Shown: positions 1 to 30,166 of the stretch, piece after piece
Numbering within the stretch: position 1 is the first letter of the stretch
Layout: the number at the start of each line of letters is the position of its first letter
Origin: Escherichia phage HY126
Sequence record: PP658200.1
Direction: 5' to 3' (one strand)
Length of the DNA: 64,000 nucleotides
Position numbers and translations under genes: made by a program
The notes under the pieces: generated by a model
Databases searched by the model: none
What the model saw: only the letters and a program-made list of their open reading frames with translations
Told to the model about the DNA's origin: nothing

Positions 1-1125
1 TGCAGACGGAGCATCAGAAGTTTTAACCGGAACTTTAGTTGTTGCTTTGCAATTAATAAGGTCGTTAACAGCGTCATCAACTTCTTTAATAGAAGAGATA
101 GCACCTAGTTTATATTTAGTTTCAATTGCATCTCGGAAAGGTTTGTGTTTAAACAACGGTCCCCAGAATTCTACACAATCAGTAGCTTTAGCACGCCATG
201 ATTTTTCTTCACGAATCATTTCGCCTGTTTCTTCGTCAAGGAATTCTCGAGCATACCACCCGGCTTTAGGCTTAACTACAAAACCGATTTCAGTTGCCAT
301 TTCTAACAAGCCACTGAATGGGTCAATACCGCCATCAAAATTAACCGTGATCGGGAAAGTAGATTTCTCTTTAACTGTACGAGATTTTTCTGCTTTCAAC
401 GTGAAGTCATAACCGGTCAATTCTGTACCTTCTTTAACCTGACGTTTAGAGATAAAAAATACCGTGTTGGCAGAATAAAGAATACCTGTACCACCGCCCA
501 TAATCTCTTTAGGATATAGTCCGCCGATTTCCATTGCTGTATGGTTAATTGCAACACACGGAATATCTTTAATAGTCAGATACGGGGTCACAATACGGAA
601 AAGAGATTTAAGTGCCTTAGCACGAGACATATCACCTACGACTTTCTCGTTCAACGCATCTTCGGTTTCTTTCTTAGATGCAGTATTACCGATTGAATCG
701 ATAAAGATAATAACTTTATCACCGCGTTCAATCGCGTCAAGCTGATTAGTCATATCAACTTTAAGTTGTTCGACAGATTGAATCGGAGTATGAACTACAC
801 GGTCTAAATCAACACCCATTGAACGAAAATAAGATTCTGAAGCACCAAATTCTGAATCATAGAACAAACAAATTGCATCTTTATATTTCTTCATATATGC
901 TGCAACCATGGTCAGTCCAAACAACGTTTTAAAGTGTTTAGAAGGAGCAGCAAAAATAGTTAAGCCTGATTGCAACCCAGCATTCAGTGCACCACCTAAT
1001 GCAATATTCAACATCGGAATACGAGTAGGGACTTCATCGCGATTATTAAACAACTTAGACTTAGTCAAGTCTGCAGTCATTTTAGAAGTAGAAGCTTTAA
1101 TCAGACGAGATTTTAAATCAGACAT
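1..1125 (-). CDS. uvsX: UvsX RecA-like recombinase, C-terminus cut by window edge
   Basis: Minus frame open to window edge, ATG at 1125..1123; translation MSDLKSRLIKASTSK...GGTGILYSANTVFF matches T4-family UvsX. Absent from ORF track because it runs off the edge. Confidence 0.95.
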   Translation of the reverse strand, partial: MSDLKSRLIKASTSKMTADLTKSKLFNNRDEVPTRIPMLNIALGGALNAGLQSGLTIFAAPSKHFKTLFGLTMVAAYMKKYKDAICLFYDSEFGASESYFRSMGVDLDRVVHTPIQSVEQLKVDMTNQLDAIERGDKVIIFIDSIGNTASKKETEDALNEKVVGDMSRAKALKSLFRIVTPYLTIKDIPCVAINHTAMEIGGLYPKEIMGGGTGILYSANTVFFISKRQVKEGTELTGYDFTLKAEKSRTVKEKSTFPITVNFDGGIDPFSGLLEMATEIGFVVKPKAGWYAREFLDEETGEMIREEKSWRAKATDCVEFWGPLFKHKPFRDAIETKYKLGAISSIKEVDDAVNDLINCKATTKVPVKTSDAPSA

Positions 1126-1224
1126 TGTATTTTTCCATAGGCATCATTATATTTTACTCATGTTTAAAAGATAAGACGATTATATACTAAGGGTTATACA
1201 GCATTTAAAACTTTAAACAGGCTC

Positions 1225-1773
1225 TTAACGAGCCCATTTGATAATTTCTGTAATCAAATTATTACGTTCGCTTGCATTAAATCCTATAACTTTGTTAGCA
1301 CCATCATGATTAAGTAATTGATACGTTTGGATTTCGTTATGAATTGCAAACTCTTCAAAATATGAAATGACTGTATTAAAACCGAACGAAGACAAAGTAA
1401 TAAGGTCGTCTTCAAAACTTTCAGTCATTTCGTTACGTGTTAAAATAATTGTGAACACATCATGGTTTTGGCAAAGACGAACATAATCCTGTTCATAAAC
1501 GTCAAGAACCGAGTCCGCATCTTGTCGAATACGTCCATAAACCCAGTTACTAATATATCCACGGTCTAACAGATAAATCTTAGTAGGGTCTAAATAATTC
1601 AACATCGTTTCGAAACAGCCAACTTCATTTCGAGACTTAACATCGAAACGTCCATCAACTGTTCGTTTAGGGAAATCAATCTTTACATATCTTTCACTAA
1701 TTTCCATTATGTCATTAATGAAAGTTGTTTTACCAGCATTATCCGGGCCATCTACTAAAATAATTTTAGCCAT
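1225..1773 (-). CDS. Thymidylate/dNMP-kinase-like P-loop kinase
   Basis: ORF track 182 aa; Walker A GPDNAGKTT and downstream LLDRGY (DR motif) as in Tmk-type kinases. Confidence 0.6.
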   Translation of the reverse strand: MAKIILVDGPDNAGKTTFINDIMEISERYVKIDFPKRTVDGRFDVKSRNEVGCFETMLNYLDPTKIYLLDRGYISNWVYGRIRQDADSVLDVYEQDYVRLCQNHDVFTIILTRNEMTESFEDDLITLSSFGFNTVISYFEEFAIHNEIQTYQLLNHDGANKVIGFNASERNNLITEIIKWAR

Positions 1774-1774
1774 T

Positions 1775-2674
1775 TTATTCCTCGATTACGACATCTTCAT
1801 ATTTAGGTATATTATACGGCGAAGAAATTAAAGCATTAAAGTAGATGAACTCGCCAAGACCTGGATGGAATACTTCTTCAGGATTTTCGAAATATTGAAT
1901 CTTCGGACGTCCTTTAAGAATTTGATAGTACTCAGTTTTAGTTGGTTTAAAAATTCGAATCAACGCTTCTTCAGGATACTTATTTCTGTCGAAGCTATTA
2001 TTTGGATCGGTTATATAAAGCGGTTGGCCTAATTGAATTGCACATTCAACCACTTGTTCAAAACGATAGCACGGGTCACTAATTCGAAATGGATGAAAAA
2101 TACCATCTAGATGAATAGGAGCCAAATCACCTACAAGACGCTGCATGATGGAAGGACGTATAACTTTCTGCGTTACGATAATCTTATTACCATCTGCACC
2201 TGCGTTAACCAGCACTTCTTTTTGACGTTCATTCAACACAGTAGTTTGAAGTGAACGATTAACCGACAACATATCAGTTTTTAAGAATTCGTCAATATAA
2301 AAACGTGGTTTATTAGGGTCTGCAGTGATATTGAAATTGAATTCCACATCAAAAGTGCCGGCATATCCGGTGATATCTGTGATTAGAAAATCACAATCAT
2401 AATAAGCAATTAATGAATCAACCACAAATTCATTTTCAGACCAGAAATATTTACGAGTGTTATACGCGTTATCTTTATACCATAATGGAACAAACTTAAA
2501 TTCTGGAAAAAGACGTTCGCATTCTTTAATATCAGATGCATTACGTGGATATGTAATCACATCACCCGGATTAGCACGGTGCAAATGAAGTTGGAAGTTG
2601 CCATCCTTAAGGATAGCATACTGTCCAGTTTCATAAGACCGCATACTCAAGATAGGTACGCGGAAAATAGCCAT
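1775..2674 (-). CDS. Hypothetical protein at the position T4 uses for beta-glucosyltransferase
   Basis: ORF track 299 aa; ATG overlaps gene 42 stop; no recognisable similarity to T4 beta-gt or alpha-gt. Confidence 0.6.
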   Translation of the reverse strand: MAIFRVPILSMRSYETGQYAILKDGNFQLHLHRANPGDVITYPRNASDIKECERLFPEFKFVPLWYKDNAYNTRKYFWSENEFVVDSLIAYYDCDFLITDITGYAGTFDVEFNFNITADPNKPRFYIDEFLKTDMLSVNRSLQTTVLNERQKEVLVNAGADGNKIIVTQKVIRPSIMQRLVGDLAPIHLDGIFHPFRISDPCYRFEQVVECAIQLGQPLYITDPNNSFDRNKYPEEALIRIFKPTKTEYYQILKGRPKIQYFENPEEVFHPGLGEFIYFNALISSPYNIPKYEDVVIEE

Positions 2675-3390
2675 TAGTCAAGGAATCCTTTAACATAATC
2701 AAAATCACGTTCAAACACATGGGCACTTACCATGGTATGAGTATAATCACCAACTTCTACACCACATTCGTTAGCGATATAATGAAGTAATTTTCCTTGG
2801 AGATAAAAATCCAACTGCATAACAACAGCACAGTTCTGAGAACGCATATGACAGTGGGTATAAAGCTTACCATCACGAATATAATAAGTCACTGAGTCAG
2901 TACATGGATATTCAAGCGTTTCGTCTGAATCAAGCAAAGCCTGATCGGAACTTTCTAGAATTTGGAACACAACTCTTCGGGAGTTAGGCTTCTCTTTAAG
3001 TTCTTTTAGAAGAGCTGGTAATTGGGCCGCAATGCGAGGACCATAGAAAGTGTTGAAGTTTGCAGGCAAAGCGTCTGATTTAGGTTTAGAAATAAATTTA
3101 GCGACGTTAGGATATGCCTTAAATGCTTCTTTTGCATCAGTACCACCAGAAATCATAAATTTCCAGAAATCTTCAGCATATTCATAAGAGATGCGATTAA
3201 TACGTGGGTCGGTCATTTTGAATGATGAAGGGGTATCAACAACTACTGTCATAGACCCAATTTCATTACAACGTCCAATACGAGAATCAGTAACGAACTG
3301 TGGATTTTCTAAAATTTCACGATTGACAGCTTTAAATGCGGATTGAAAATCTGCGGCTTTAATATATTTCATTGTGTTATGTTTTCCCAT
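2674..3390 (-). CDS. 42: dCMP hydroxymethylase
   Basis: ORF track 238 aa; thymidylate-synthase-fold signatures (NSRRVVFQILE, CTDSVTYYIRD, SAHVF) as in T4 gp42. Confidence 0.85.
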   Translation of the reverse strand: MGKHNTMKYIKAADFQSAFKAVNREILENPQFVTDSRIGRCNEIGSMTVVVDTPSSFKMTDPRINRISYEYAEDFWKFMISGGTDAKEAFKAYPNVAKFISKPKSDALPANFNTFYGPRIAAQLPALLKELKEKPNSRRVVFQILESSDQALLDSDETLEYPCTDSVTYYIRDGKLYTHCHMRSQNCAVVMQLDFYLQGKLLHYIANECGVEVGDYTHTMVSAHVFERDFDYVKGFLD

Positions 3391-3572
3391 GTTTACCTCA
3401 ATACAGTTATTATATACTCAATTCATAAAGCTTATTTGAATTTCTTAGCGATGTTGATATAACGTAAAGCTTCAGCATCGATACTTCCAAGAACACTATG
3501 AAGAAATGCATCAGCATAGTATTCTAGTTGAACAGGTTTCTTTAATCACTTTAAGCCGCTTTGGTTTCAAAC

Positions 3573-3592
3573 AGGCCCATAAGGGCCTTTTT
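3573..3592. terminator. Stem-loop AGGCCC-ataa-GGGCCT with T5 run on the plus strand
   Basis: Perfect 6-bp stem read directly; lies ~80 nt 3' of the 3670..4830 stop in the 42/sugar-module intergenic gap. Confidence 0.35.
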
Positions 3593-3669
3593 AAGAATTT
3601 GTTCGTTGCTGTTAATTTTCATAGTCAAAATCTCTTCATTAAGTTGGTGGTTAAAAGTTTTTCTAGAAA

Positions 3670-4830
3670 TCATTCTGGGTACCTCAAAGCGTCGTCAGAG
3701 TTAGTTATATCAATAATAGATATAGAGTTTTCTGATAACCCATTTTTAGATAATTGACGTTTATAATATCTTTCACAATATGTACACGTCGTCCCACAGA
3801 TTTCATTAGCACAATCGAAATCTGGATGTCTGAACCACCTTTTTTCTAAAAAGCCATCTAACAAAGAGGTTTCAATATTTACCGTATGTGAAAACTCGGT
3901 CTCATTTTCAAGAGTGAAAATGGTCTCTAAAGGCTTCCACAATTCCAACAAATTACCTTCAAATTTTTCGGAAGCATAAGCTTCAAGAACTTTCAAAATG
4001 TAGTCTGTGCTACCTGTACGTCCTGAAACTTTGAATTGAGTGATACCAATATCATTATAAAGTTTCAAATCTTGAGGACGAACAAAACGAGTTCTCAACC
4101 AGTTAAATGGATCTGTATCACGAGCTTTAATGCAGTGTTGCATTGGATATCCATTTAAGGATTTAGCATCATCAGCGGTAACATCAGTACTATGGAAAAT
4201 ATAGCAAGAGTCACGATAGCTACAATGTGTTGTATACCCTTTACCAGCATTAGAACAGAACTCATTTACAAGAACTTCAAATATTATATTGTTCTTATTG
4301 CAAAACTCTGCTGCACGCTTCAGGAAAGAAACCGAACGGTTCTTATGAATTCCACAGCAGACCTTTTTGATATTATACTGGTCATGCAAGTATTTGATTT
4401 GAGTTACAGCATCGACATGTAGAATTGTTGAAACTTCAATCTCAATGTCTTTATTGACTTCACGAACAATTTCCATAACAACAGGGTTAGCGATAGTAAT
4501 ACGCCATACGCCTATTGACCAAAGATACTGAACATAATCCTGAATAGCTTTCTTCTTCCACTCAACTAGTTCTCTTTTTGAACCAGGATTTATCGTGTTG
4601 AGTGTATAGTTAAAGCAAATACCTAATTCGTTACAACGTTTAACGTAATCTTCTAACATCTTTTTGTCAACGTCAGGAAGCCTAAAATCAGGTCTGGCTG
4701 CTACAAAAGCCATTTCTCTTGTAGAGCCGTATACTTCATTTATCAAGCTATTAGGATAAGTTTTATTGAGCTCTACGATTTTATCAAGAAGAGCTAAATC
4801 AAAATTCGTTCCGATTTTAAAAGTATTCAT
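3670..4830 (-). CDS. Cys-rich protein of unknown function, last gene of sugar-nucleotide module
   Basis: ORF track 386 aa; C-terminal CANEICGTTCTYC cluster; weak resemblance to TIM-barrel/U32-like proteins, not firm. Confidence 0.6.
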   Translation of the reverse strand: MNTFKIGTNFDLALLDKIVELNKTYPNSLINEVYGSTREMAFVAARPDFRLPDVDKKMLEDYVKRCNELGICFNYTLNTINPGSKRELVEWKKKAIQDYVQYLWSIGVWRITIANPVVMEIVREVNKDIEIEVSTILHVDAVTQIKYLHDQYNIKKVCCGIHKNRSVSFLKRAAEFCNKNNIIFEVLVNEFCSNAGKGYTTHCSYRDSCYIFHSTDVTADDAKSLNGYPMQHCIKARDTDPFNWLRTRFVRPQDLKLYNDIGITQFKVSGRTGSTDYILKVLEAYASEKFEGNLLELWKPLETIFTLENETEFSHTVNIETSLLDGFLEKRWFRHPDFDCANEICGTTCTYCERYYKRQLSKNGLSENSISIIDITNSDDALRYPE

Positions 4831-4884
4831 TTTTACATCTCGCGTTAATTGATGCGATGGTTTTTGCAGGTCTTACTTAAATTA

Positions 4885-5271
4885 TTATAGATTCGGTTTA
4901 TATGATTTAAATGTTTCGAATTCGCCTTTATTCATAAGAGCTTTGAATTCGTCAGGACGCATAGCTTTGTCGTCGATAATCCAATCATATACTGGTTTAT
5001 GTGTTAGCAAATTATGGTACTTCAAGCCAATGTTTGCCAAGTTCTGAATCAGACTTGGGAGAATGTCAATTGCTATACGACCAGGACCTACTGACTTCAT
5101 ACCGCGAGCAGTGTAAAGCGTTATTGTATGCCCTGCATCATACAGGGCATTAATGGCAGACACCATTTCGACGTCTGGTTTGAAGTTCACGTAATCACGA
5201 TTGTTATTCCACTCGGTTATACAATCATCGACATCAAAACAAAGATTAAGCATGTTTTCTACACGGTGCAT
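4885..5271 (-). CDS. HAD-superfamily phosphatase (sugar-phosphate phosphatase-like)
   Basis: HAD motifs FDVDDCIT, TARG, DWIIDDK; start moved to second ATG (5271) which overlaps upstream stop by 1 nt (track start 5286). Confidence 0.7.
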   Translation of the reverse strand: MHRVENMLNLCFDVDDCITEWNNNRDYVNFKPDVEMVSAINALYDAGHTITLYTARGMKSVGPGRIAIDILPSLIQNLANIGLKYHNLLTHKPVYDWIIDDKAMRPDEFKALMNKGEFETFKSYKPNL

Positions 5272-6959
5272 TAGATTCGTTCCCATTGATGAGTGATATC
5301 GCCACCGATTGGACGATAGGAAACACCAGTTTCTTTATCAGTTAGTACCCATTTACCAGGATTTTTTGTAATCAGAGTAGCCGTTACAGGTTCTGCTACG
5401 TCATAACTAATAGAGCCGTCCTGAAGTACACGGCCCATGTTACGTAATTGCTTAGTCAGAAGTTCCATACCTTTATAATATGCGGCTACCGCTTTAAGTG
5501 GATTATTCTTGAAATAACCACCTAATGCAATCCAGATAATTGCCACTGCCAAATGATGATACTCGTTAAACGAACTCATCTTTCCATATTTGTAAACTAA
5601 TGGATTGATGTTAATAGACACATTACAAGTTGTTTCATCAATAGTAAACTGTCCCCAAGTCGGATTAGCGTTGAATTCATCATAACCTGAAACAGCGTAA
5701 AGCACTTTAGCTTCATCATACAATTTTGGCCCATAAATCTTGGTTTCACCAAAATATCCACGAGGGTCGATAAACTTGACTTCACAATTATCAGTAATCA
5801 TAGTATTACTGAAGTTCGGGTCGCCATGAATAACAGAGTACTGTCCCTGAGAACGGTTATGATAACGAATAAGGTGTTCTAAAGCTTGTTTCAACATTGG
5901 CTTCAGACGCCCAATCTTAGTGTAGTTCACATGTGTTATTTTACCAAATGAATCAATCAATGGTTGAATACTTTCACAACGATCAATAACTTTAGTATAG
6001 AATTCTTTAGTGAAATCACGACGAACAGTTTCAGGACTTACAAAATAAGTGTCTGTGCTGAATTTCAGTGCATCTAAAATTGCATCAACAATTTGTGGAC
6101 GAGCAAGACTTGATTTGGATTTAATATATTCAAATGCTGGCTTACCTTTAATACGTTCCATAATAAAGTGGCCGCCAGGATGATAACTTACAATCCGTGG
6201 AACTGAATCTGATTTAACTTTCTTATACCAATTGACTTCATCTTTTTGAAGTGCAACGCCCTGTTCTGTTAAAGCAATCTTTGTTACCGTTTCTTCGCCA
6301 ATTTCAACTGCATTAAAACTACGATTAAGTTCACGAACTTCATGAGCTTTTTCAAGTTTAGGCATATCACCAAGGTCGATGATATTCATAAGCTCTGATT
6401 TATTGAATGCGCTGCCGTAAAGGAATTCTACGAAATCACGTCCTTTGCAGTATTCATGAATTTCCTCATCAGTAGAACCCATATAGAATTCCCAGTCTTT
6501 GAACTGATAAATTCCTACAACATTACCACCTGTTGAACCTACATTAGTGATATTTTCACCGTCGAAATTATATCGACATTCGTCACCCTTAACATAGATT
6601 GCGTTAACATTCCAAGACCACGAACCAAAATCAGGAATAATATCACACCAGTTAACAATTACATTATGGCCGTCTAAATCTTTGTGCAATTTAGCAAGAG
6701 CATAAGCAGAACCATACGCTTCATCAACTGTACGAATAGTCACATTGAACCCTTCTTGCTCACAATAAGCTCGAACAGTTTCAGCAAATTTTGAATGAAC
6801 TACTACAATAATTTCATCTGCGCCAAGGTCAGAATAAATTGTATACAAATTGCTCAGAATAGTGTCTTGTTTATAGTTAACAAGCACCTTAGGAATATGA
6901 TGCGTTATTGGATACAAACGAGTTGCCAGTCCAGCACCAAGAATAACAGCTTTTTTCAT
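5271..6959 (-). CDS. Bifunctional sugar-1-phosphate nucleotidyltransferase / sugar kinase
   Basis: ORF track 562 aa; N-term ILGAGLATRLYPIT...PKVLV (NTP-transferase fold); C-term IHGDPNFSN (APH/choline-kinase-like catalytic loop). Confidence 0.75.
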   Translation of the reverse strand: MKKAVILGAGLATRLYPITHHIPKVLVNYKQDTILSNLYTIYSDLGADEIIVVVHSKFAETVRAYCEQEGFNVTIRTVDEAYGSAYALAKLHKDLDGHNVIVNWCDIIPDFGSWSWNVNAIYVKGDECRYNFDGENITNVGSTGGNVVGIYQFKDWEFYMGSTDEEIHEYCKGRDFVEFLYGSAFNKSELMNIIDLGDMPKLEKAHEVRELNRSFNAVEIGEETVTKIALTEQGVALQKDEVNWYKKVKSDSVPRIVSYHPGGHFIMERIKGKPAFEYIKSKSSLARPQIVDAILDALKFSTDTYFVSPETVRRDFTKEFYTKVIDRCESIQPLIDSFGKITHVNYTKIGRLKPMLKQALEHLIRYHNRSQGQYSVIHGDPNFSNTMITDNCEVKFIDPRGYFGETKIYGPKLYDEAKVLYAVSGYDEFNANPTWGQFTIDETTCNVSININPLVYKYGKMSSFNEYHHLAVAIIWIALGGYFKNNPLKAVAAYYKGMELLTKQLRNMGRVLQDGSISYDVAEPVTATLITKNPGKWVLTDKETGVSYRPIGGDITHQWERI

Positions 6960-7000
6960 GTTGTGGTCCTCATTGGTAAGTAGGAGTATTGTACACTATT

Positions 7001-7144
7001 CTAGTTAAAGCATTCATACTTTGCTTGTAGTCCAATCATAATCCATCCGATTATAAGAGTCGGAATCATTACTGGAGCCGTTAAGCTCCAGTAGATAGTC
7101 ATGACAAGCATCAATAGTAAAAGTCCTATTGTTATTGCTTTCAT
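7001..7144 (-). CDS. 47-aa hydrophobic peptide (MKAITIGLLLLMLVMTIYW...)
   Basis: ATG overlaps SIS gene stop (ATGA); stop TAG at 7003..7001 precedes the GAGG SD of 5271..6959; two predicted TM stretches. Below ORF-track size cutoff. Confidence 0.4.
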   Translation of the reverse strand: MKAITIGLLLLMLVMTIYWSLTAPVMIPTLIIGWIMIGLQAKYECFN

Positions 7145-7776
7145 TGTTCGCCTCGTAACATGGCACCTAGTGCACCGCCAGGGTGGAACTTAAGGAAGTC
7201 ATTAGAGGTAAATCCACGTTCAGACGAAAGGTTGATAGCAAACGTATCGATAAGCGCTAACAACAATGTAGTGGACATAGTCGGAGCCAGAGAATTCTCA
7301 TCAACCTCTACTGCGATGCCTGTACAGAACGTATAATCAAAAAGAGCTTCGTATTCTTGTGGAATGTCCGGGTTACAATGCAACAGAATCTGTTTGACGT
7401 TCGGACGAATCATTTTAAGATGCTTAGCCACGCCTATCATTTCTTCAGTTTTACCAGAACGACTAATATGAATCAACACATCATTAGGCGCAATGAATCC
7501 TGCATCACCGTGAGAATAATGCCCAGTGTTCAAGTACATACTCGGGATACCGAGTGAAGCAAATGTCTCAGAAGCTTTAGTTGCAATATTAGCATTCTTA
7601 CCAACACCTGTAATAATTACTCGGCTTTCATAATTACTAAGTCCTGGGCGTCGAAGAGTTTCTAGAATAGCATTATAACGAGCAGGGTTTTGACTAATTA
7701 CTTTGGCCATAGCGGCCAAAGAAGAAGCTTGTTTTATGATTGCGTCAATAGCGATAGTAATAGGAGTAGTTTTCAT
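7141..7776 (-). CDS. SIS-domain sugar-phosphate isomerase, KdsD/GutQ-type (arabinose-5-phosphate isomerase-like)
   Basis: ORF track 211 aa; VIITGVGKNANIATKASETFASLGIPS, HGDAG, ISRSGKTEE, PTMSTT pattern typical of KdsD-type SIS domains; no CBS domains. Confidence 0.75.
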   Translation of the reverse strand: MKTTPITIAIDAIIKQASSLAAMAKVISQNPARYNAILETLRRPGLSNYESRVIITGVGKNANIATKASETFASLGIPSMYLNTGHYSHGDAGFIAPNDVLIHISRSGKTEEMIGVAKHLKMIRPNVKQILLHCNPDIPQEYEALFDYTFCTGIAVEVDENSLAPTMSTTLLLALIDTFAINLSSERGFTSNDFLKFHPGGALGAMLRGEQ

Positions 7777-7816
7777 ATTTCTCTCATTTAATTAGTTTAC
7801 CGTCCATGACATTATA

Positions 7817-10528
7817 TCAAAAATCGAACATATCGAACAGAGATGCTTTCTTCTCATAATCGAGTTTCGCTGCTGATGTGAATCCTTCAAGTGGTTTAAT
7901 AAATGTCTTCTCAAGGAGAACAGTGTAGTCCATCCAGTGAAGTACATCGTCTTTAATTAAATCTGTGATTTCAGTACCAGAAGGCCATGCGATACATTTA
8001 TCACCGAATGGGTTTCCTTCACGTAAAGGCAGAACATATACTTTTTCACCTTCTACAACTTGCGGTGCATCGATATTACCTTTGATAGCACGGTTATACG
8101 TCAGAATTCCACGAATATGGAACGGGCATTTGGGACCAGGGAATCCACCTACATCATATTTAGCAATGTTATTCGCAGAAGATACCGACGCGATGCTAAT
8201 ATAATTCAATTGACGGAATTCTTTTTCAAACTCTTTAAAATATTCTTGTAATGATTCTTCACCTTCTTGAAGCATACGACGAATACATTCTTTAAGAGCT
8301 TTCTGTACTGCTTTAGGAGTCGAAGATTTCTGAGTCTCTAGACCCATGATTTTGAGTTTAGGCTCAGCGTAACGAGTACCTTCCATATCCCACACGTTTA
8401 ATGCATAACGTTTCTTACCAGTCCAGAATCCACCAATACCTTTAGAACCGAGTGGAGGCCCAGCGATAGCTTCTCGGTCCATGAACATTAAGTGTTGTTT
8501 ATTGTTCATGTATTCACACATTTCACGGAAACCTCTATCAATAGCTGGTTCCATACGTTCACGTGCAAACTTATCTAAGAAGTCTACCCAATGGTTGGTA
8601 TCACGGAATTTAGATTCACCAACCTTATCGATAATTTTATCAGCAGATACGTAAATAGAGTCTGTATCACCATAAAGAACGAAAGCTTCACCTTCTGTAC
8701 CACAAACTTCATTCAGATATTCATTAACTTTACGTTCAATCCACTGTAAAGCCATTTGCCCGAATGTTGTGATTGCAGTAGCATTACGCAAATCATAATA
8801 ACGGAACCAAACGTTGCCAAGTGCACCATAAAGCGAGTTGATGAGCAATTTACGGTTAATTTGGGCAGTCATACCTGCAACTTCAGTACGTTGAGCTCTA
8901 AACAACATTTCATTAAGAGATTTAGCAGACAACTTTTTAATCTTTTCTTTAATCTCATCGCTGAAGTCGAAACGATAATCAACATCTAATGGTTCGTCAA
9001 CAGAAAGATTAGGATTATGCAATGCCTCTTTAATTATTTCACCATTACGTTGAGCTGCAAGCATGTAACCTTTATGTTCTTTACGTTGATTAAAGACCTT
9101 AGTGATTTCAGTTGGAACTACACCATCACGGTCTTTATAATACATCATGCCGTTAGGAGAACAACTGTACACATCAGAAGGACGTTCAGCAACAGCGTTA
9201 ATATAATCATGCAATGGAGCTACTTTAAACGTTCCTGCTATTGTTTCTGGGCTAATATTCACTTGGCGAATAATACTTGGATACAGAGATGTGAGGTCGA
9301 AGCTCATCACATATTTGTATCGATTTGGAATAGGTTCCTTAACAAAAGCACCAGGATAAGGTTGAACCGGATGAGAACGACCTTGTGGAATCACCTTGTT
9401 CTGCTCTTTAAGGCTATTAAAAATAATAGCATCCCATGTTTTAATTGGGCTAAACACGGATTGAATCTGTATCTTAGCATAATAACCCATGTCCAAACTC
9501 AAGTTGATGAACTGACGCTTAGCATCAATTTGCAATACACGATACACGTCGATAATGTTATAAGAAATATATCGTTGGTGATTGCTTTCACGAAGCTTAG
9601 AAATAGGGCCGTCATATTTCAGTTTACCAACGTTCAATTCAAATTCTGAAATGTAATCCAGAGAATACGACGGTTGATTGGTAAAAGAGAATTTTTTGTA
9701 AAGGTCAATGTAATCAAGAACAGAGATACCGAACAGTGTAATGATTTCACGAGAACCATACATGTTTTCGATAACTTTAACACGAGTTTTACGATGTGGT
9801 GATAAACGTTTCGCAGTAGATTCGCCAAAAATATTCTTGATTCGGTTATACACATATGGAATATCAAATGACTCAACGTTCCATCCAGTCAAAATGACAG
9901 GAGTTTTCTGTTGCCAGAAGTTGAGATATTCCATCAACAATTCTTTTTCGTTATCGAACGGCATATAAATGATTTTATCGATAATTTCGGATGGAACTTC
10001 ATCACCACCTTGTTCTTGAAGCTTAGCTGCAATTTCGATAGACCATTCTTCCACATTACCATATGGAGAATTCAATAGATCAAATACGTAGAACCTGTCG
10101 TCAATTGAGTCATAATGAGTGATAGCATCAATAGGATGTTTTGCTTGTGACGGCTCAGGGAACCCATCCGGAGATGTTACTTCGATGTCGAAGTTAGCCA
10201 CACGAATTTTTGTATGGTCGTATTTGATTTCATAGTTATAAGTGTCAGACAAATACGCCAATTTGAAATCGTCCATGCCAAGTGCTTCAAGTCCGATATC
10301 TTCCATGCGTTTAATCCATTGTGAGGCATCACGCATATTAGCGAACAACTTACGAGTACACGGCTTACCGTAGATATCGAAATATTTCGTAGCCTGACTT
10401 TCCGGACAATGAGCAAACAGTGATGGTTTATATTCTACTTCACGAGTACGTTCACGGCCGTTAGAATCGATGTAACGTTCAAAAATTGAATCACCAATCT
10501 GTTCAACCGTTAAGTAAAATTCTTTCAT
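7817..10528 (-). CDS. 43: DNA polymerase
   Basis: ORF track 903 aa; family-B polymerase with exonuclease domain; sequence is RB69-type gp43 (MKEFYLTVEQIG..., YGDTDS). Confidence 0.98.
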   Translation of the reverse strand: MKEFYLTVEQIGDSIFERYIDSNGRERTREVEYKPSLFAHCPESQATKYFDIYGKPCTRKLFANMRDASQWIKRMEDIGLEALGMDDFKLAYLSDTYNYEIKYDHTKIRVANFDIEVTSPDGFPEPSQAKHPIDAITHYDSIDDRFYVFDLLNSPYGNVEEWSIEIAAKLQEQGGDEVPSEIIDKIIYMPFDNEKELLMEYLNFWQQKTPVILTGWNVESFDIPYVYNRIKNIFGESTAKRLSPHRKTRVKVIENMYGSREIITLFGISVLDYIDLYKKFSFTNQPSYSLDYISEFELNVGKLKYDGPISKLRESNHQRYISYNIIDVYRVLQIDAKRQFINLSLDMGYYAKIQIQSVFSPIKTWDAIIFNSLKEQNKVIPQGRSHPVQPYPGAFVKEPIPNRYKYVMSFDLTSLYPSIIRQVNISPETIAGTFKVAPLHDYINAVAERPSDVYSCSPNGMMYYKDRDGVVPTEITKVFNQRKEHKGYMLAAQRNGEIIKEALHNPNLSVDEPLDVDYRFDFSDEIKEKIKKLSAKSLNEMLFRAQRTEVAGMTAQINRKLLINSLYGALGNVWFRYYDLRNATAITTFGQMALQWIERKVNEYLNEVCGTEGEAFVLYGDTDSIYVSADKIIDKVGESKFRDTNHWVDFLDKFARERMEPAIDRGFREMCEYMNNKQHLMFMDREAIAGPPLGSKGIGGFWTGKKRYALNVWDMEGTRYAEPKLKIMGLETQKSSTPKAVQKALKECIRRMLQEGEESLQEYFKEFEKEFRQLNYISIASVSSANNIAKYDVGGFPGPKCPFHIRGILTYNRAIKGNIDAPQVVEGEKVYVLPLREGNPFGDKCIAWPSGTEITDLIKDDVLHWMDYTVLLEKTFIKPLEGFTSAAKLDYEKKASLFDMFDF

Positions 10529-24434: not shown

Positions 24435-24904
24435 TTTAAACTCTTTCTAAGCTGCTTTTTGAATGAAGCTATTAATTGTGTTTTAGTATCAGATTCATTA
24501 TATTCAAATCCTCTTTGAAGCATCTCGGCCATCATTTCCTCTTTACCTAGTCTTGAGAACTCTTTAGTTTTGTCTGGAACAAAATTAGGATGGATATTAT
24601 TATCAGAATAATCTTGTTTCAAATAAGCAAGAAGAGCTTCAAGCCATTCGAGGTAGTTGACATCACGGCCTTTAAGACCGGAACGGTTGAACTTATGCTT
24701 CATTTGACCTTCTGCTGCGTTGCACAGATTACAGAGTAACCCACGAACTCTACCTGCTTTTGGCCCGTTTAATTCGTGGTCGTGGTCAAGATGGTTACCT
24801 TGAACATCAGGGTCTAATTCACGGTGGCAAATAGGACACTTACCATTCTGTGCATCATAAAATTTTTGTTTTTCTTCTTTGTATAATTTGCCAGATAATA
24901 ACAT
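24431..24904 (-). CDS. 49: Endonuclease VII (Holliday junction resolvase)
   Basis: ORF track 157 aa; near-identical to T4 gp49 (MLLSGKLYKEEKQKFYDAQNGKC...). Confidence 0.95.
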   Translation of the reverse strand: MLLSGKLYKEEKQKFYDAQNGKCPICHRELDPDVQGNHLDHDHELNGPKAGRVRGLLCNLCNAAEGQMKHKFNRSGLKGRDVNYLEWLEALLAYLKQDYSDNNIHPNFVPDKTKEFSRLGKEEMMAEMLQRGFEYNESDTKTQLIASFKKQLRKSLK

Positions 24905-24932
24905 AATAAACCCTTACCATATTAGATAAGGG

Positions 24933-24940
24933 TATTTATA
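24933..24940 (-). promoter_or_regulatory. Late promoter TATAAATA upstream of gene 49
   Basis: Exact TATAAATA on the minus strand about 29 nt upstream of the gene 49 ATG. Confidence 0.55.
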
Positions 24941-24942
24941 AT

Positions 24943-25122
24943 TTAATAAATGTTATAAAAGTCACGATGGAAACGTTTGTATTGGCGAATCATTCTTTTA
25001 GTAGGACGTGTTACCGAAATGATTGAAGTCCTCATGTTCGGATTGTTTGGAGCACCAATTATAACAAATTTCCAAGATTTTTGACCGTTTGTTCTTTCGC
25101 CAAAAAATAATGCAGTTTTCAT
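24943..25122 (-). CDS. 59-aa basic protein, paralog of 25547..25717
   Basis: Hand-translated MKTALFFGERTNGQKSW...VTRPTKRMIRQYKRFHRDFYNIY; shares the RPTKR...R.HR.FY core with the second copy. Below ORF-track cutoff. Confidence 0.45.
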   Translation of the reverse strand: MKTALFFGERTNGQKSWKFVIIGAPNNPNMRTSIISVTRPTKRMIRQYKRFHRDFYNIY

Positions 25123-25131
25123 AATAAGCCC

Positions 25132-25545
25132 TTAACTTAAACGTCTTTCTAAATATTCAATGTATTCCGCTGCGGCTTGCATCAGATTACCTTCATAACC
25201 GTCATTATTTTCTTGGGCGGCTAATTTAGCTAAAGCATAAGAAATACGTTCACCTTCGAATTCGCCAAGTTCACCATCACAAACTACTTGGTCAATTTCT
25301 TCGAGTTCATCTATTGAATGGGATTCCCAGAAGCACCAAAGAGAAGTATCACGGTCATAGATGCAAAGTTTCTCACCTGTGTTCAACATCACTTCGATAA
25401 TGCCATGGTCGCCATAACCATCTTCGGTAGTAGTACCAATTACCTTGATGATCGTATCTTTCTTTAATTCAGGAAACTTATCTTGGAGTTCTTCGTCTTC
25501 TTTAACAATCTTGAACCATTTACCGCGAGTTTCAGAAATATTCAT
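25132..25545 (-). CDS. Hypothetical acidic protein
   Basis: Track ORF trimmed to ATG 25545 (MNISETRGKW...) to abut the upstream small ORF. Confidence 0.5.
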   Translation of the reverse strand: MNISETRGKWFKIVKEDEELQDKFPELKKDTIIKVIGTTTEDGYGDHGIIEVMLNTGEKLCIYDRDTSLWCFWESHSIDELEEIDQVVCDGELGEFEGERISYALAKLAAQENNDGYEGNLMQAAAEYIEYLERRLS

Positions 25546-27847: not shown

Positions 27848-28145
27848 AAAGTTTTTAATGTTATCGCGAGCTACAGTAGAAGATAATAAACGAGAACGTT
27901 TGAACCAATGAAGCAGTGTCCCTAATGAATGAGAATACGCATTCTGAGTATCTTTACAGATATGATTTTCTTGGCCTGTGTATGTACCAAAATCGCGAAG
28001 AATACCACTTACTACAACTCGGTGTGGAACATCAAATCCTAATGAACCAGAAGCACGTTGGGCATGAACGTTAGCGATAAGACCTGCAAAATAATCAATG
28101 TAATGTGAACGTGTCGTAATATTTTCCTCTCGTTAAGATAGAAAG

Positions 28146-28175
28146 ATTATACTCCAACCATCCTTGGTTGTAAAC
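28146..28175 (-). promoter_or_regulatory. Promoter/stem-loop cassette (GTTTACA, hairpin CAACCA-agga-TGGTTG, TATAAT)
   Basis: Minus sense GTTTAC-18-TATAAT directly after the stop of 28180..29115; repeated at 29142 and 30202. Confidence 0.5.
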
Positions 28176-28179
28176 TGAT

Positions 28180-29115
28180 TTATGATTTTAATGCATTCAT
28201 TGCGTTAAAAAGTTTAGAGTACTGCAACTGGAGCTTGGTAACTACTTGTTGAGCATCACGAAGCTTAGCTTGTGCTTTGTCAAGTTCAACAGACAGTTGG
28301 TCCACAGTGGCTTTGATTTGATTATAATAGTAATCTTCGGCAGGAAGAAGACCGTTAGAGATTTCCAGTTTAGTCGACGGTGAAGTGTATATAGATGGAG
28401 CAGTAAAATATGCACCTTGAACTTCAGCATTGCCAATTGGGGTTGTAGTAATTGACGCTTCGAACGTTGCATTTTCCTTTTTAAGATTTTGATAGTATTC
28501 AGAGTCTTTGTGCCACCATGGCGCAGGAACCTTTTTACCAATAGATACACGAGCCTGGATAGCGATATGGCCCTTATTCTTGATAGGGTTGATAATATTA
28601 AGCTCACGAGAATAAATTGCTTTAATCTGGTGGATATTATCACCTAAAACTTCCAACGCTTGATGGAATACACGAGCAACGTTATCATTCTTAGGTTTAT
28701 ACGTAAGAGTGAACTCGTTCTCACTGATAACCATGATTTCTAACTTATCGTAAGTATATTTCAAATGTTTCATGTTAATTGCTTGAGGACGAATACGAGA
28801 AGCAATGGCCATCAGATTGTTAAGGTTATTCCTGAACTGCTTAGCGAAATATTGCCCTTCACCGCCAATACAAAAATTACGAAGTTTCTGTTTGGCTAAT
28901 AAACGGCTGAACTCACCATTTTTAATGAACTCTTTAACGGGTGTGTTAGTAACGCATTCAAATTGAGTAAACTTACGAGAATTAATCCCATAATATGAAC
29001 AGATTTCCTCAATCTCTTCAGGAGTCTTTACAGGCATACGGATAGGATTAGGTCCTGGGGTATATGCGTTCGAGGTAAATTCTTTGATAAGTTCTCTACG
29101 TGTAATAGAAGCCAT
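28180..29115 (-). CDS. Paralog 2 of tandem family, coiled-coil C-terminus
   Basis: ORF track 311 aa; MASITRRELIKEF...; homologous blocks with paralogs 1 and 3. Confidence 0.6.
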   Translation of the reverse strand: MASITRRELIKEFTSNAYTPGPNPIRMPVKTPEEIEEICSYYGINSRKFTQFECVTNTPVKEFIKNGEFSRLLAKQKLRNFCIGGEGQYFAKQFRNNLNNLMAIASRIRPQAINMKHLKYTYDKLEIMVISENEFTLTYKPKNDNVARVFHQALEVLGDNIHQIKAIYSRELNIINPIKNKGHIAIQARVSIGKKVPAPWWHKDSEYYQNLKKENATFEASITTTPIGNAEVQGAYFTAPSIYTSPSTKLEISNGLLPAEDYYYNQIKATVDQLSVELDKAQAKLRDAQQVVTKLQLQYSKLFNAMNALKS

Positions 29116-29141
29116 TTTATATTCCTCATGTTGAAAAATTT

Positions 29142-29170
29142 ATTATACTCCAACCATCCTTGGTTGTACA
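29142..29170 (-). promoter_or_regulatory. Promoter/stem-loop cassette
   Basis: Minus sense TGTACA-17-TATAAT with CAACCA/TGGTTG hairpin; near-identical to 28146 copy. Confidence 0.5.
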
Positions 29171-30166
29171 TCATTCCTTAAGAAGTTTTACTACCTGAAT
29201 AAGATTAGCTCGTTCTGTTTTATTTTTACTGTTTAAGCCTGCTAATCGTGAGATTTCATCGTCAGTCTGTTGAATAGTTACATTAAGTTCGTTAATCAAA
29301 GCTTCAAAGTATTTGATTTGCTCAGCATGTTTTGATTCGAATTTCTGAACCGGAATAACGTCTTGGTTTAGTTCATCAATAAGGTCTTTAAGAGCATCTT
29401 CTTGGTTGATATCATATTCAACTTCTTTTATTTCTTCAACGAGCTCGTCTTTATATCTAACGTCTTTTAGTCCTGGTGCTGGTCCTGAAATCTCTTCTTT
29501 AAGAGTACAAACATATCCAATACGGTATCCAATGCTGTCTCGCTTGATATCAACTTCGTCAATAAATCCACAATGTTTAAGACCAGAGCCGATTAGGTCA
29601 AAATATCCTTGACGTCGTCCTTCAAACGTTACACGAACTACTAAGACAGTTTTACCTGCGACCTTTTGAAGCTCACATTTATAAAAGTCTGTTGAACCTG
29701 AATAACGTGGATGAGTTTTAAAGTTCATCTGACGATCTAGGCCCATTTGTAAGCGTGCTGATACGGCCATAAAACGTGTTTGGTTCTCGTTAAGATGTGC
29801 AACAATCCATTTCAAAGGCATTTTACACTGTTCACGGCCGAACAAATCAGTACGTCCTAGATTACGCAGGATGTTGTTAGAGTTAATCATCGACAGAACG
29901 TTAAGTTTATTCAGCGCGCTGAAGATTCCATCAGCCATTGATTTTCCGTAACCTTTACACGCTTTAATAAGCGCTCGCGGTAGATTAGTATAGATTTCAG
30001 ATGGCATATGAAAATCAAATTTACTAGTCAGTAATTGATGAACTTGGATAGCAATTTGCTCATAATTAAGTGCTCTGCGATCATTATGGTCTTTAAACCA
30101 CACTTTAATCTGTGAAGCACATAAACCGTTAATTTCATGTTTTACCGCATCAGATGTAATGCTCAT
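29171..30166 (-). CDS. Paralog 3 of tandem family, coiled-coil C-terminus
   Basis: ORF track 331 aa; MSITSDAVKHEING... Confidence 0.6.
   Translation of the reverse strand: MSITSDAVKHEINGLCASQIKVWFKDHNDRRALNYEQIAIQVHQLLTSKFDFHMPSEIYTNLPRALIKACKGYGKSMADGIFSALNKLNVLSMINSNNILRNLGRTDLFGREQCKMPLKWIVAHLNENQTRFMAVSARLQMGLDRQMNFKTHPRYSGSTDFYKCELQKVAGKTVLVVRVTFEGRRQGYFDLIGSGLKHCGFIDEVDIKRDSIGYRIGYVCTLKEEISGPAPGLKDVRYKDELVEEIKEVEYDINQEDALKDLIDELNQDVIPVQKFESKHAEQIKYFEALINELNVTIQQTDDEISRLAGLNSKNKTERANLIQVVKLLKE

What the first reader, a model, noticed from the sequence alone, without database searches (positions are those of the whole stretch)
1225..7776. Phage-encoded sugar-nucleotide pathway in place of glucosyltransferases: candidate non-glucose hypermodification of hmC
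Between dCMP hydroxymethylase (42) and DNA polymerase (43) four minus-strand genes form a compact unit. 7141..7776 is an SIS-domain protein with the KdsD/GutQ-type pattern (arabinose-5-phosphate-isomerase-like). 5271..6959 fuses an N-terminal sugar-1-phosphate nucleotidyltransferase fold to a C-terminal APH/choline-kinase-fold kinase (IHGDPNFSN). 4885..5271 is a small HAD phosphatase (DVDDCIT, TARG, DDK). 3670..4830 is a Cys-rich protein of unknown role. Together they could convert a host pentose phosphate into an NDP-sugar: isomerase, phosphatase, anomeric kinase, nucleotidyltransferase. The uvsX-42 interval, which holds beta-glucosyltransferase in T4, instead holds a Tmk-like kinase (1225..1773) and an unassignable 299-aa protein (1775..2674); alpha-gt is also absent between 47 and 55. 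hmC is still made (gene 42), so the phage most likely decorates hmC with a sugar other than glucose. Arabinose is the obvious candidate from the isomerase type. RB69-type phages are reported to carry arabinosyl-hmC, but I cannot confirm from memory which genes were assigned, so the enzyme-to-step mapping is my inference.
Basis: partly seen in the sequence, partly recalled or inferred. Interest (0 to 1): 0.85.

Follow-up and report, generated by a model that had tools for sequence, protein, structure and literature searches.

The report
Phage arabinosyl-5-hydroxycytosine DNA modification cluster
This is the already published gene cluster by which RB69-like phages replace cytosine with arabinose-decorated 5-hydroxycytosine (not hydroxymethylcytosine), and its one unexplained gene looks like an oxygen-independent back-up hydroxylase.

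Summary
All six ORFs exist at the stated coordinates. The window is a Mosigvirus (RB69-like), 98.5% identical to phage ZQ3. The cluster is the published arabinosylation module of RB69/HY126 (Thomas 2018; Mahler 2025; He 2026; Lee 2026), so the main finding is a rediscovery.

Two parts of the interpretation are wrong:
- The 'gene 42' homolog is not a dCMP hydroxymethylase. It is 100% identical to PDB 9IQC, 25% identical to T4 gp42, and carries the L143E/D169N/N177D signature of flavin/O2-dependent 5-hydroxy-dCMP synthases. The sugar sits on 5-hydroxycytosine, not hmC.
- The published step order is isomerase, 1-kinase, 5-phosphatase, uridylyltransferase, giving UDP-arabinofuranose.

The 'unassignable' 299-aa protein is a GT-B glycosyltransferase (arabinosyltransferase 1). 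The 'Cys-rich' protein is a U32-family Fe-S protein.

New here: that U32 protein has no role in the papers I could read. Its subfamily has ten invariant cysteines. It sits next to chorismate mutase (the prephenate maker) in 13 of 15 T4-like loci. In 32 divergent viral loci it accompanies the same glycosyltransferase, kinase or sugar genes with no D169N hydroxylase within 10 kb. It is absent from phages of strict aerobes. I infer an O2-independent, prephenate-dependent route to 5-hydroxycytosine. This is untested.

The parts
1225..1773 (-). Tmk-like P-loop nucleotide kinase (RB69 gp45 ortholog). Substrate not established.
   Evidence: 99% identical to RB69p045. phrog_761 'thymidylate kinase' 5e-45. 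Only weak Pfam/NCBIfam P-loop hits. Homologs travel with the 299-aa GT family in L022-L024 and in 21 of 32 divergent U32 loci.
1775..2674 (-). GT-B fold glycosyltransferase: putative first DNA arabinosyltransferase (RB69 gp46:47, one intact ORF here).
2674..3390 (-). 5-hydroxy-dCMP synthase, a flavin/O2-dependent thymidylate-synthase homolog (RB69 gp48). Not a dCMP hydroxymethylase.
   Evidence: 100% identical to PDB 9IQC/9IR2. 25% identical to T4 gp42. L143E, D169N, N177D in alignment A4. Activity shown for RB69 gp48 and DLP3 gp80 in PMC13326640.
3551..3673 (-). 40-aa remnant ORF at the position occupied by chorismate mutase in related genera (RB69p049 is 79 aa).
   Evidence: Two 1-nt insertions relative to RB69 truncate it. 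Matches positions 1-40 of the 79-position phrog_8601. No CM_2 hit for this ORF or RB69p049, whereas the LC53 ortholog position scores CM_2 1.7e-11. Only faint end similarity to LC53 CM.
3670..4830 (-). U32-family Fe-S protein (RB69 gp50). Proposed here as an O2-independent, prephenate-dependent pyrimidine C5-hydroxylase (inference).
4885..5271 (-). HAD-type phosphatase (AfhF / RB69 gp51): arabinose-1,5-bisphosphate 5-phosphatase.
   Evidence: PDB 9IQW 1.8e-87 over the full length, 1XPJ 5e-10. TIGR01689 capsule biosynthesis phosphatase 4e-13. Function reported for HY126 AfhF (PMC13326640, citing He 2026).
5271..6959 (-). Bifunctional enzyme (AfhE / RB69 gp52:53, intact here). C-terminal APH-like arabinose-5-P 1-kinase plus N-terminal UDP-arabinofuranose pyrophosphorylase.
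   Evidence: NTP_transferase 1e-9 at residues 3-99; APH/EcKL/fructosamine-kinase-like weak hits at residues 238-410. 1JYK 2e-5. 373 phage records carry it. Activities reported for HY126 AfhE (PMC13326640).
7001..7144 (-). Conserved 47-aa hydrophobic small ORF between the SIS and AfhE genes. Role unknown.
   Evidence: phrog_3610 4.5e-27 over the full length. LC53 has a 47-aa 'transmembrane segment' ORF at the same place.
7141..7776 (-). SIS-domain D-arabinose-5-phosphate isomerase (RB69 gp55): ribulose-5-P to arabinose-5-P.
   Evidence: SIS 1.7e-10. kpsF 2e-32 and KdsD 1e-30, below full-length cutoffs because the CBS domains are absent. 3ETN 5.5e-25, 2XHZ 6.5e-19.

Best explanation
The interval is the arabinosyl-5-hydroxycytosine (ara-5hoC) DNA hypermodification cluster of a Mosigvirus.

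Base branch:
- The ThyA homolog (2674-3390) hydroxylates dCMP at C5 using flavin and O2. This was shown for orthologs.
- Kinases convert the product to the triphosphate and the polymerase incorporates it.

Sugar branch:
- The SIS isomerase makes arabinose-5-P from ribulose-5-P.
- The kinase domain of the 562-aa fusion phosphorylates C1.
- The HAD phosphatase removes the 5-phosphate.
- The nucleotidyltransferase domain makes UDP-arabinofuranose. This route was shown for HY126 AfhE/AfhF.

Transfer: the 299-aa GT-B enzyme puts the first arabinose on the 5-OH (predicted). A second transferase (RB69 ORF003c) and the dCTPase lie outside the window.

My added inference concerns the U32 Fe-S protein (3670-4830). 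I propose it is a second, O2-independent hydroxylase that uses prephenate as oxygen donor, like RlhA, TrhP and UbiU/V. It would let the phage make 5-hydroxycytosine when the O2-dependent enzyme cannot work. Related genera supply their own chorismate mutase. In Mosigvirus that gene has decayed and host PheA/TyrA would supply prephenate.

Confidence is about 0.9 for the cluster identity and about 0.5 for the U32 role. The figure given below is for the cluster identity.
For: Cluster identity:
- 97-98.5% nucleotide identity to 151 Mosigvirus records.
- 95-100% protein identity to RB69 gp45-gp55.
- ThyA homolog identical to 9IQC and HAD matching 9IQW.
- D169N/N177D/L143E signature.
- GT-B fold.
- Published biochemistry in PMC13326640, PMC6024577 and PMC13390438.

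U32 role:
- U32 family membership and fold.
- Ten invariant Cys, with the RlhA-essential residues aligned.
- Chorismate mutase translationally coupled between U32 and the ThyA-like gene in LC53 and Entb_45, found in 54 phage records and in 13 of 15 T4-like IMG/VR loci.
- DAHP-synthase-CM fusions or stand-alone CM next to U32 in 10 of 32 divergent viral loci.
- In those 32 loci, GT299 homologs occur in 16, AfhE in 16 and the Tmk-like kinase in 21. None has a D169N-type ThyA homolog within 10 kb.
- Conversely, GT299 homologs sampled on their own sit next to D169N ThyA homologs with no U32.
- U32 is absent from the Acinetobacter phage cluster examined, and Acinetobacter is not among the U32-positive genera although 57 Acinetobacter phage records carry the rest of the pathway.
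- U32 is 83-87% conserved across genera, against 71-72% for AfhE.
- Precedent: RlhA makes 5-hydroxycytidine and needs prephenate and Fe-S (PMC5727448); prephenate is the O donor for UbiU/V (PMC10990095).
Against: - No experiment on the U32 protein is available to me. Two key papers (He 2026 Nat Chem Biol; Mahler 2025 Cell Host Microbe) could not be read and may assign or exclude a role.
- Dhakaviruses such as JS98 infect E. coli yet lack U32, so it is not required in every enteric phage.
- Direct hydroxylase activity has not been reconstituted in vitro for any U32 protein (PMC10990095).
- Profile similarity to TrhP and UbiU is weak (E 5e-3 and 9e-3).
- Which cysteines bind clusters is ambiguous: MAFFT and hhalign disagree on C192 versus C203.
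- Absence of a ThyA-like gene was checked only within 8-10 kb of U32. Several census loci are near-duplicates or truncated.
- The first-transfer activity of the 299-aa GT was not obtained in vitro by Lee et al.
- The substrate level (dCMP, dCTP or DNA) is unknown.
Confidence: 0.9

Rival explanations
1. One reading: gene 42 still makes hmC, and the cluster decorates hmC with arabinose (ara-hmC), as first proposed for RB69 in 2018.
For: Thomas et al. 2018 (PMC6024577) interpreted RB69 DNA as ara-hmC. The ThyA homolog shares L143 acidic and N177D with T4 gp42. GenBank records often annotate it as dCMP hydroxymethylase.
Against: The protein has D169N, while T4 gp42 keeps Asp. It is 25% identical to gp42 and identical to 9IQC. 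RB69 gp48 yields 5hodC with 18O from O2, and NMR/MS show a direct ether linkage (PMC13326640). PMC13390438 calls the ara-hmC assignment erroneous.
Confidence: 0.03
2. The U32 protein is a sugar- or heterocycle-modifying enzyme of the arabinose branch (reductase or epimerase), as labelled in Table 1 of Lee et al. and as 'epimerase' in PMC13390438.
For: It lies between the HAD phosphatase and the base-modifying genes. In 16 of 32 divergent loci it is near AfhE, and in 9 near SIS homologs. It has a TIM-barrel fold like many sugar enzymes.
Against: DLP3-type Acinetobacter phages and JS98 lack it yet carry the rest of the pathway, and DLP3 makes tri-arabinosyl-5hoC. Six divergent loci have kinase-GT-U32 triads with no sugar-activation genes. 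No U32 protein is known to act as a sugar reductase. The chorismate mutase and DAHPS-CM linkage is not explained by this model.
Confidence: 0.12
3. The U32 protein hydroxylates RNA (host or phage tRNA U34, or rRNA C2501) like TrhP/RlhA, tuning translation during infection rather than modifying DNA.
For: All nucleic-acid substrates known for U32 proteins are RNA (PMC5727448, PMC6599085). The best profile match is RlhA. Prephenate and CM would be needed for this activity too.
Against: The gene is embedded in, and translationally coupled to, DNA-modification and deoxynucleotide genes: GT299, Tmk-like kinase, dCMP deaminase, dUTPase, TAGT. It lacks the RlhA DUF3656 and C-terminal RNA-associated regions (386 aa against 653 aa). 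In divergent viruses it is found where the D169N hydroxylase is missing.
Confidence: 0.1
4. The U32 protein is a peptidase (the collagenase-like activity that gave the family its name), with a role unrelated to DNA modification.
For: Pfam family name and GenBank annotations 'peptidase' and 'collagenase-like protease'.
Against: No catalytic mechanism for U32 proteolysis is known (PMC5727448). The invariant Cys clusters, the CM linkage and the nucleotide-gene context point elsewhere.
Confidence: 0.03

Closest known systems
Arabinosyl-5-hydroxycytosine pathway of phages RB69, HY126 (Afh genes), Bas46/47, LC53 and DLP3 (Thomas 2018; Mahler 2025; He 2026; Lee 2026)
   Same: Same genes in the same order as RB69 gp45-gp55, at 95-100% protein identity. 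ThyA homolog and HAD match the HY126-series PDB entries 9IQC and 9IQW. Same predicted product: UDP-arabinofuranose transferred to 5-hydroxycytosine.
   Different: Essentially nothing. The window has intact single ORFs where the RB69 reference is split by sequencing errors (gp46:47, gp52:53), and a further truncated gp49 remnant. The second arabinosyltransferase (ORF003c) and the dCTPase lie outside the window.
T4 glucosyl-hydroxymethylcytosine system (gp42 dCMP hydroxymethylase, alpha-gt, beta-gt, gp56, gp1)
   Same: Same logic: a ThyA-superfamily enzyme modifies dCMP before replication, followed by sugar transfer from a UDP-sugar by GT-B enzymes. Same genome neighbourhood (uvsX to gene 43).
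   Different: Hydroxyl rather than hydroxymethyl; flavin/O2 rather than methylene-tetrahydrofolate; D169N. The phage must make its own UDP-arabinofuranose because the host has none. No alpha-gt or beta-gt homologs.
Prephenate-dependent U32 hydroxylases: RlhA (ho5C2501 of 23S rRNA), TrhP (ho5U34 of tRNA), UbiU/UbiV (anaerobic ubiquinone)
   Same: Peptidase_U32 domain, TIM-barrel fold, conserved Glu/Cys signature. C5 of a pyrimidine is the known target of RlhA and TrhP. Each of these cellular reactions also has an O2-dependent counterpart (TrhO; UbiI/H/F), the same pairing I propose with the ThyA-like enzyme. Genomic linkage to prephenate supply.
   Different: A distinct subfamily: about 360-390 aa, only 17-18% identity to the E. 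coli proteins, an extra invariant C-terminal CX4CX3CX2C motif, and no DUF3656. Found in viral genomes next to deoxynucleotide and DNA-glycosylation genes. The substrate would be a deoxynucleotide or DNA. No activity has been shown.
KdsD/GutQ arabinose-5-phosphate isomerases and HddC/GmhB-type sugar activation modules of LPS and capsule biosynthesis
   Same: The SIS domain, the HAD bisphosphate phosphatase logic (as in GmhB) and the sugar-1-P nucleotidyltransferase are all borrowed from cell-envelope sugar pathways.
   Different: The SIS protein lacks the CBS domains. The kinase is an APH/choline-kinase-fold domain fused to the nucleotidyltransferase. The product feeds DNA modification rather than Kdo or heptose.

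Membership tests
Ara-5hoC (Afh/RB69-type) DNA hypermodification cluster | ThyA homolog with the 5hodCMP-synthase signature (L143E, D169N, N177D; catalytic Cys146 kept) | tested here: met
   Alignment A4. 100% identical to 9IQC.
Ara-5hoC (Afh/RB69-type) DNA hypermodification cluster | Arabinose-5-phosphate isomerase, bifunctional kinase/nucleotidyltransferase (AfhE) and HAD phosphatase (AfhF) encoded together | tested here: met
   95-99% identical to RB69 gp51-55.
Ara-5hoC (Afh/RB69-type) DNA hypermodification cluster | GT-B DNA arabinosyltransferase adjacent to the hydroxylase | tested here: met
Ara-5hoC (Afh/RB69-type) DNA hypermodification cluster | Virion DNA contains arabinosylated 5-hydroxy-dC in place of dC | not testable with these tools
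   Shown for RB69, NP, Bas46/47 and HY126 in the literature, not for this isolate.
T4-type glucosyl-hmC system | dCMP hydroxymethylase (gp42 type, Asp at ThyA position 169) | tested here: not met
   Asn at position 169; 25% identity to gp42.
T4-type glucosyl-hmC system | alpha- and/or beta-glucosyltransferase | tested here: not met
   tblastn of T4 a-gt and b-gt against the whole window: best E 0.029.
U32 prephenate-dependent hydroxylases (RlhA/TrhP/UbiU/UbiV) | Peptidase_U32 domain above the Pfam gathering score, and U32 fold | tested here: met
U32 prephenate-dependent hydroxylases (RlhA/TrhP/UbiU/UbiV) | Conserved cysteines that ligate the 4Fe-4S cluster (RlhA/UbiU C169, C176, plus two more) | tested here: inconclusive
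   Invariant Cys align with C169/C176/C193, and ten Cys are invariant in the subfamily. The two alignments differ on C192 versus C203, the fourth ligand is unassigned, and cluster binding was not measured.
U32 prephenate-dependent hydroxylases (RlhA/TrhP/UbiU/UbiV) | Activity depends on prephenate and is O2-independent | not testable with these tools
   Indirect only: chorismate mutase or DAHPS-CM next to U32 in 13 of 15 T4-like and 10 of 32 divergent viral loci.
AroQ chorismate mutase (for the small ORF 3551-3673) | CM_2 domain with catalytic Arg/Lys/Glu residues | tested here: not met
   No CM_2 hit for the window ORF or RB69p049. The LC53 ortholog position scores 1.7e-11. Alignment A2 shows the core deleted.

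The most novel reading that the evidence does not exclude
The U32 Fe-S protein (window 3670-4830; RB69 gp50) founds a virus-borne subfamily of prephenate-dependent, O2-independent pyrimidine C5-hydroxylases. These would make 5-hydroxy-(deoxy)cytosine for DNA glycosylation. In enterobacterial T4-like phages it would back up the O2/flavin-dependent ThyA-like synthase, which could allow hypermodified DNA to be made anaerobically, for example in the gut. In many uncultivated low-GC viruses it would be the only hydroxylase. Some of those viruses carry their own chorismate mutase or DAHP-synthase-CM fusion to feed it.
Probability: 0.5. Interest if true: 0.78.

Novelty: already known. Interest (0 to 1): 0.35.

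Why it matters
The cluster explains how RB69-like phages, which are common therapeutic candidates, make DNA that resists type II restriction and CRISPR nucleases yet is seen by some type IV systems. That part is published.

The open part is practical. The only demonstrated hydroxylase needs O2, while these phages replicate in facultative anaerobes of the gut. If the U32 protein supplies an anaerobic route, three things would follow:
- It would be the first U32 enzyme acting on DNA precursors.
- It would be a new example of the organic O-donor chemistry proposed for UbiU/V.
- It would be a marker for finding 5-hydroxypyrimidine-based DNA hypermodification in uncultivated viruses of anaerobes.

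Tried and rejected
- A PDB sequence search with the U32 protein found nothing, even at E 1. Only the fold search recovered 5D88.
- The 299-aa protein gave no Pfam, NCBIfam or PDB sequence hit and needed a structure model.
- I tested whether RB69p049 or the window's 40-aa ORF is a chorismate mutase. No CM_2 hit was found and the catalytic core is missing, so I treat it as a decayed remnant rather than a functional CM.
- The promoter/terminator scan of 1000-8000 gave fewer promoter-like sites than shuffles (20 against 27.4) and was uninformative.
- I looked for RB69 ORF003c (second arabinosyltransferase) and gene 56 dCTPase in the window. Both are absent because the window runs from uvsX away from rIIA.
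- I considered DAHP_synth_1 in L009 as a KdsA (Kdo-8-P synthase, which uses arabinose-5-P). The DAHPS-CM fusions in L050 and L052-L054 make a shikimate-pathway reading more likely, but KdsA is not excluded for L009.
- Profile comparison with TrhP and UbiU was weak. Only RlhA gave a long alignment.
- He et al. 2026 and Mahler et al. 2025 are not held in the library. The transposon-mutagenesis preprint gave no gene-level data on this cluster.


Full report
**Observation**

They form a compact unit between uvsX and the DNA polymerase gene. The 6.5-kb interval is 97-98.5% identical to 151 phage genomes of the RB69 group, genus Mosigvirus; the best match is vB_EcoM-ZQ3 at 98.5%. Mapping on the RB69 reference gives these correspondences:

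| Window coordinates | RB69 gene |
|---|---|
| 1225-1773 | gp45 |
| 1775-2674 | gp46 + gp47 |
| 2674-3390 | gp48 |
| 3551-3673 | front part of gp49 |
| 3670-4830 | gp50 |
| 4885-5271 | gp51 |
| 5271-6959 | gp52 + gp53 |
| 7001-7144 | gp54-like |
| 7141-7776 | gp55 |

The two pairs that are split in the RB69 record are single intact ORFs here. This agrees with the sequencing errors reported for that record (PMC6024577; PMC13326640). No homolog of T4 alpha- or beta-glucosyltransferase occurs anywhere in the window.

**What is already known**

The module was pointed out in 2018 as the likely UDP-arabinose pathway of RB69 (PMC6024577). It was revised in 2025-2026. Lee et al. (PMC13326640) showed by MS and NMR that RB69 and Acinetobacter phage DLP3 carry mono- to tri-arabinosylated 5-hydroxycytosine. 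The sugar is ether-linked directly to C5. They also showed that the thymidylate-synthase homolog (RB69 gp48) makes 5-hydroxy-dCMP with oxygen from 18O2 and binds a flavin.

They cite He et al. 2026 for phage HY126. In that work AfhE is a bifunctional arabinose-5-P 1-kinase and UDP-arabinose pyrophosphorylase, and AfhF is the Mg-dependent phosphatase acting on arabinose-1,5-bisphosphate. PMC13390438 found the same bases in Mosigvirus NP and calls the older ara-hmC assignment erroneous.

**My checks of the individual genes**

- **ThyA homolog.** It is 100% identical to PDB 9IQC/9IR2 and only 25% identical to T4 gp42. In an alignment with E. coli ThyA and T4 gp42 it has Glu at position 143, Asn at 169 and Asp at 177, while T4 gp42 keeps Asp169. 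This is the signature Lee et al. propose for 5hodCMP synthases.
- **HAD protein.** It matches PDB 9IQW (2e-87).
- **SIS protein.** It is a KpsF/GutQ-type isomerase without CBS domains.
- **562-aa protein.** It has the nucleotidyltransferase domain at the N-terminus and a weakly scoring APH/choline-kinase-like domain at the C-terminus.

**The one gene without a role**

The 'Cys-rich' protein is a Peptidase_U32 family member. Lee et al. list it only in a table, as 'sugar or heterocycle reductase'. Their text does not contain the words U32, chorismate or prephenate. No paper in the searchable library links U32 or prephenate to phage DNA.

Characterised U32 proteins are Fe-S enzymes of O2-independent hydroxylation that depend on prephenate:
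- RlhA forms 5-hydroxycytidine in 23S rRNA (PMC5727448).
- TrhP forms 5-hydroxyuridine in tRNA.
- UbiU/V hydroxylate ubiquinone precursors, with prephenate as the oxygen donor (PMC10990095).

**Comparative genomics of the U32 gene**

*Distribution.* In the phage collection U32 occurs in 221 records. All encode a protein at least 80% identical, and all listed hosts are Enterobacterales or Shewanella. The ThyA-like synthase and AfhE occur in 377 and 373 records, including 57 Acinetobacter phages. The Acinetobacter phage and E. coli Dhakavirus JS98 clusters lack U32, so it is an accessory to the pathway.

*Chorismate mutase in T4-like phages.* In LC53 and Entb_45 a chorismate mutase gene (CM_2, 1.7e-11) lies between U32 and the ThyA-like gene, with overlapping stops and starts. 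CM homologs occur in 54 phage records, in every listed row beside these genes. In Mosigvirus the corresponding ORF (RB69p049) has lost the CM core. In this window two 1-nt insertions truncate it further to 40 aa.

*Metagenomic relatives.* An exhaustive search finds 1185 cluster representatives at E up to 1e-3. Relatives at 45-58% identity lie on phage-like contigs next to Tmk, UDG, dCMP deaminase, dUTPase, NT5C, dNK, a TAGT-type DNA glycosyltransferase and UDP-galactopyranose mutase. In L012, L019, L020 and L021 the gene overlapping the U32 start is a homolog of the window's 299-aa glycosyltransferase. L009 has GT, SIS and AfhE homologs followed by U32.

*Census of 47 IMG/VR loci:*

| Locus group | n | ThyA-family gene within 10 kb | GT299 | AfhE | Tmk-like kinase | CM |
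|---|---|---|---|---|---|---|
| T4-like | 15 | 15 | 15 | 15 | 15 | 13 |
| Divergent | 32 | 1 (canonical ThyA: L143, D169, N177) | 16 | 16 | 21 | 10 |

Four of the ten divergent CM hits are DAHP-synthase-CM fusions. None of the 32 divergent loci has a D169N-type gene within 10 kb.

*Reciprocal test.* Three distant GT299 homologs sampled on their own all lie beside or one gene away from a D169N ThyA homolog and are followed by the Tmk-like kinase. Two have a Flavodoxin_2 gene just upstream. None has U32 nearby.

*Conservation.* U32 is among the most conserved proteins of the cluster: 83-87% between genera, against 71-72% for AfhE.

**Interpretation**

The glycosyltransferase-kinase pair is genomically coupled either to the O2/flavin ThyA-like hydroxylase or to U32. 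In enterobacterial T4-like phages it is coupled to both. U32 is repeatedly coupled to enzymes that make prephenate.

The simplest reading is that U32 is an alternative, O2-independent source of the 5-hydroxyl acceptor. This parallels the cellular pairs TrhO/TrhP and UbiIHF/UbiUV.

This is inference from sequence, structure prediction and context. Its caveats:
- No U32 protein has been reconstituted in vitro.
- JS98-type coliphages do without it.
- Absence of ThyA-like genes was checked only within 8-10 kb.
- Some census loci are near-duplicates or truncated.
- Two relevant papers could not be read.

Alternatives are a sugar-branch enzyme, an RNA hydroxylase or a peptidase. They explain the CM linkage and the complementary distribution less well, but they are not excluded.

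**Verdict**

It is wrong on the base (5-hydroxycytosine, not hmC) and on the step order.
- It left two assignable proteins unassigned.
- The system itself is already known, so the finding scores low for novelty.
- The residual interest is the U32/chorismate-mutase module. I put its proposed role at about 50% probability, and it is directly testable.

Noticed in passing
window 3391-3673: The small ORF at the chorismate-mutase position is 40 aa here against 79 aa in RB69, because of two single-base insertions. Both versions lack a CM_2 domain, so the gene looks like a decaying remnant in Mosigvirus.
   Followed up: yes
window 7001-7144: A 47-aa strongly hydrophobic ORF (phrog_3610, 4.5e-27) is conserved between the SIS and AfhE genes. 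LC53 has a 47-aa 'transmembrane' ORF at the same spot. Its role in a nucleotide-sugar cluster is unexplained.
   Followed up: partly
window 1775-2674 and 5271-6959 vs L001 (RB69) 24597-25497 and 28094-29780: The window carries single intact ORFs where the RB69 reference record is split into gp46/gp47 and gp52/gp53. This is consistent with the published view that the RB69 splits are sequencing errors.
   Followed up: yes
L050:8399-9430, L052:3-968, L053:7290-8354, L054:8323-9384: Uncultivated low-GC viral contigs encode DAHP-synthase-chorismate-mutase fusion proteins (DAHP_synth_1 N-terminal, CM_2 C-terminal) just upstream of the U32 gene. These appear to be virus-encoded shikimate and prephenate supply enzymes.
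   Followed up: partly
L023:4715-5978 and L024:4739-6004: A Flavodoxin_2 (NAD(P)H-dependent FMN reductase family) gene sits immediately upstream of D169N-type ThyA homologs in two large phage contigs. This fits a need for reduced flavin by the 5hodCMP synthase.
   Followed up: no
L012:5777-14179: A viral contig couples U32 to a TAGT-family DNA glycosyltransferase (4e-8), a dUTPase/DCD, a Gly_transf_sug protein and a UDP-galactopyranose mutase. This suggests a 5-hydroxypyrimidine decorated with galactofuranose rather than arabinose.
   Followed up: partly
L007:7001-14428: One contig has two U32 paralogs (the second only 22% identical), a radical SAM/SPASM protein, NT5C, dNK, an NMN transporter and a nucleoside deoxyribosyltransferase in one block. 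A dockerin/GH43 giant protein nearby hints at an anaerobic cellulolytic host.
   Followed up: no
L003 (JS98) 5322-10175: Dhakavirus JS98 keeps AfhE, HAD, kinase, the ThyA-like gene and the GT but lacks both the SIS isomerase and U32. It presumably relies on host KdsD/GutQ for arabinose-5-P.
   Followed up: partly
L002 (LC53) 5352-5990: LC53 has a NUMOD3-motif homing-endonuclease-like gene inserted between the HAD phosphatase and U32 genes, showing that this junction tolerates mobile insertions.
   Followed up: no
window 3670-4830 (residues 340-352): The phage U32 subfamily has an invariant C-terminal CX4CX3CX2C motif that is absent from E. coli UbiU, UbiV, TrhP and the aligned part of RlhA. 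It may be a second metal or Fe-S site.
   Followed up: partly
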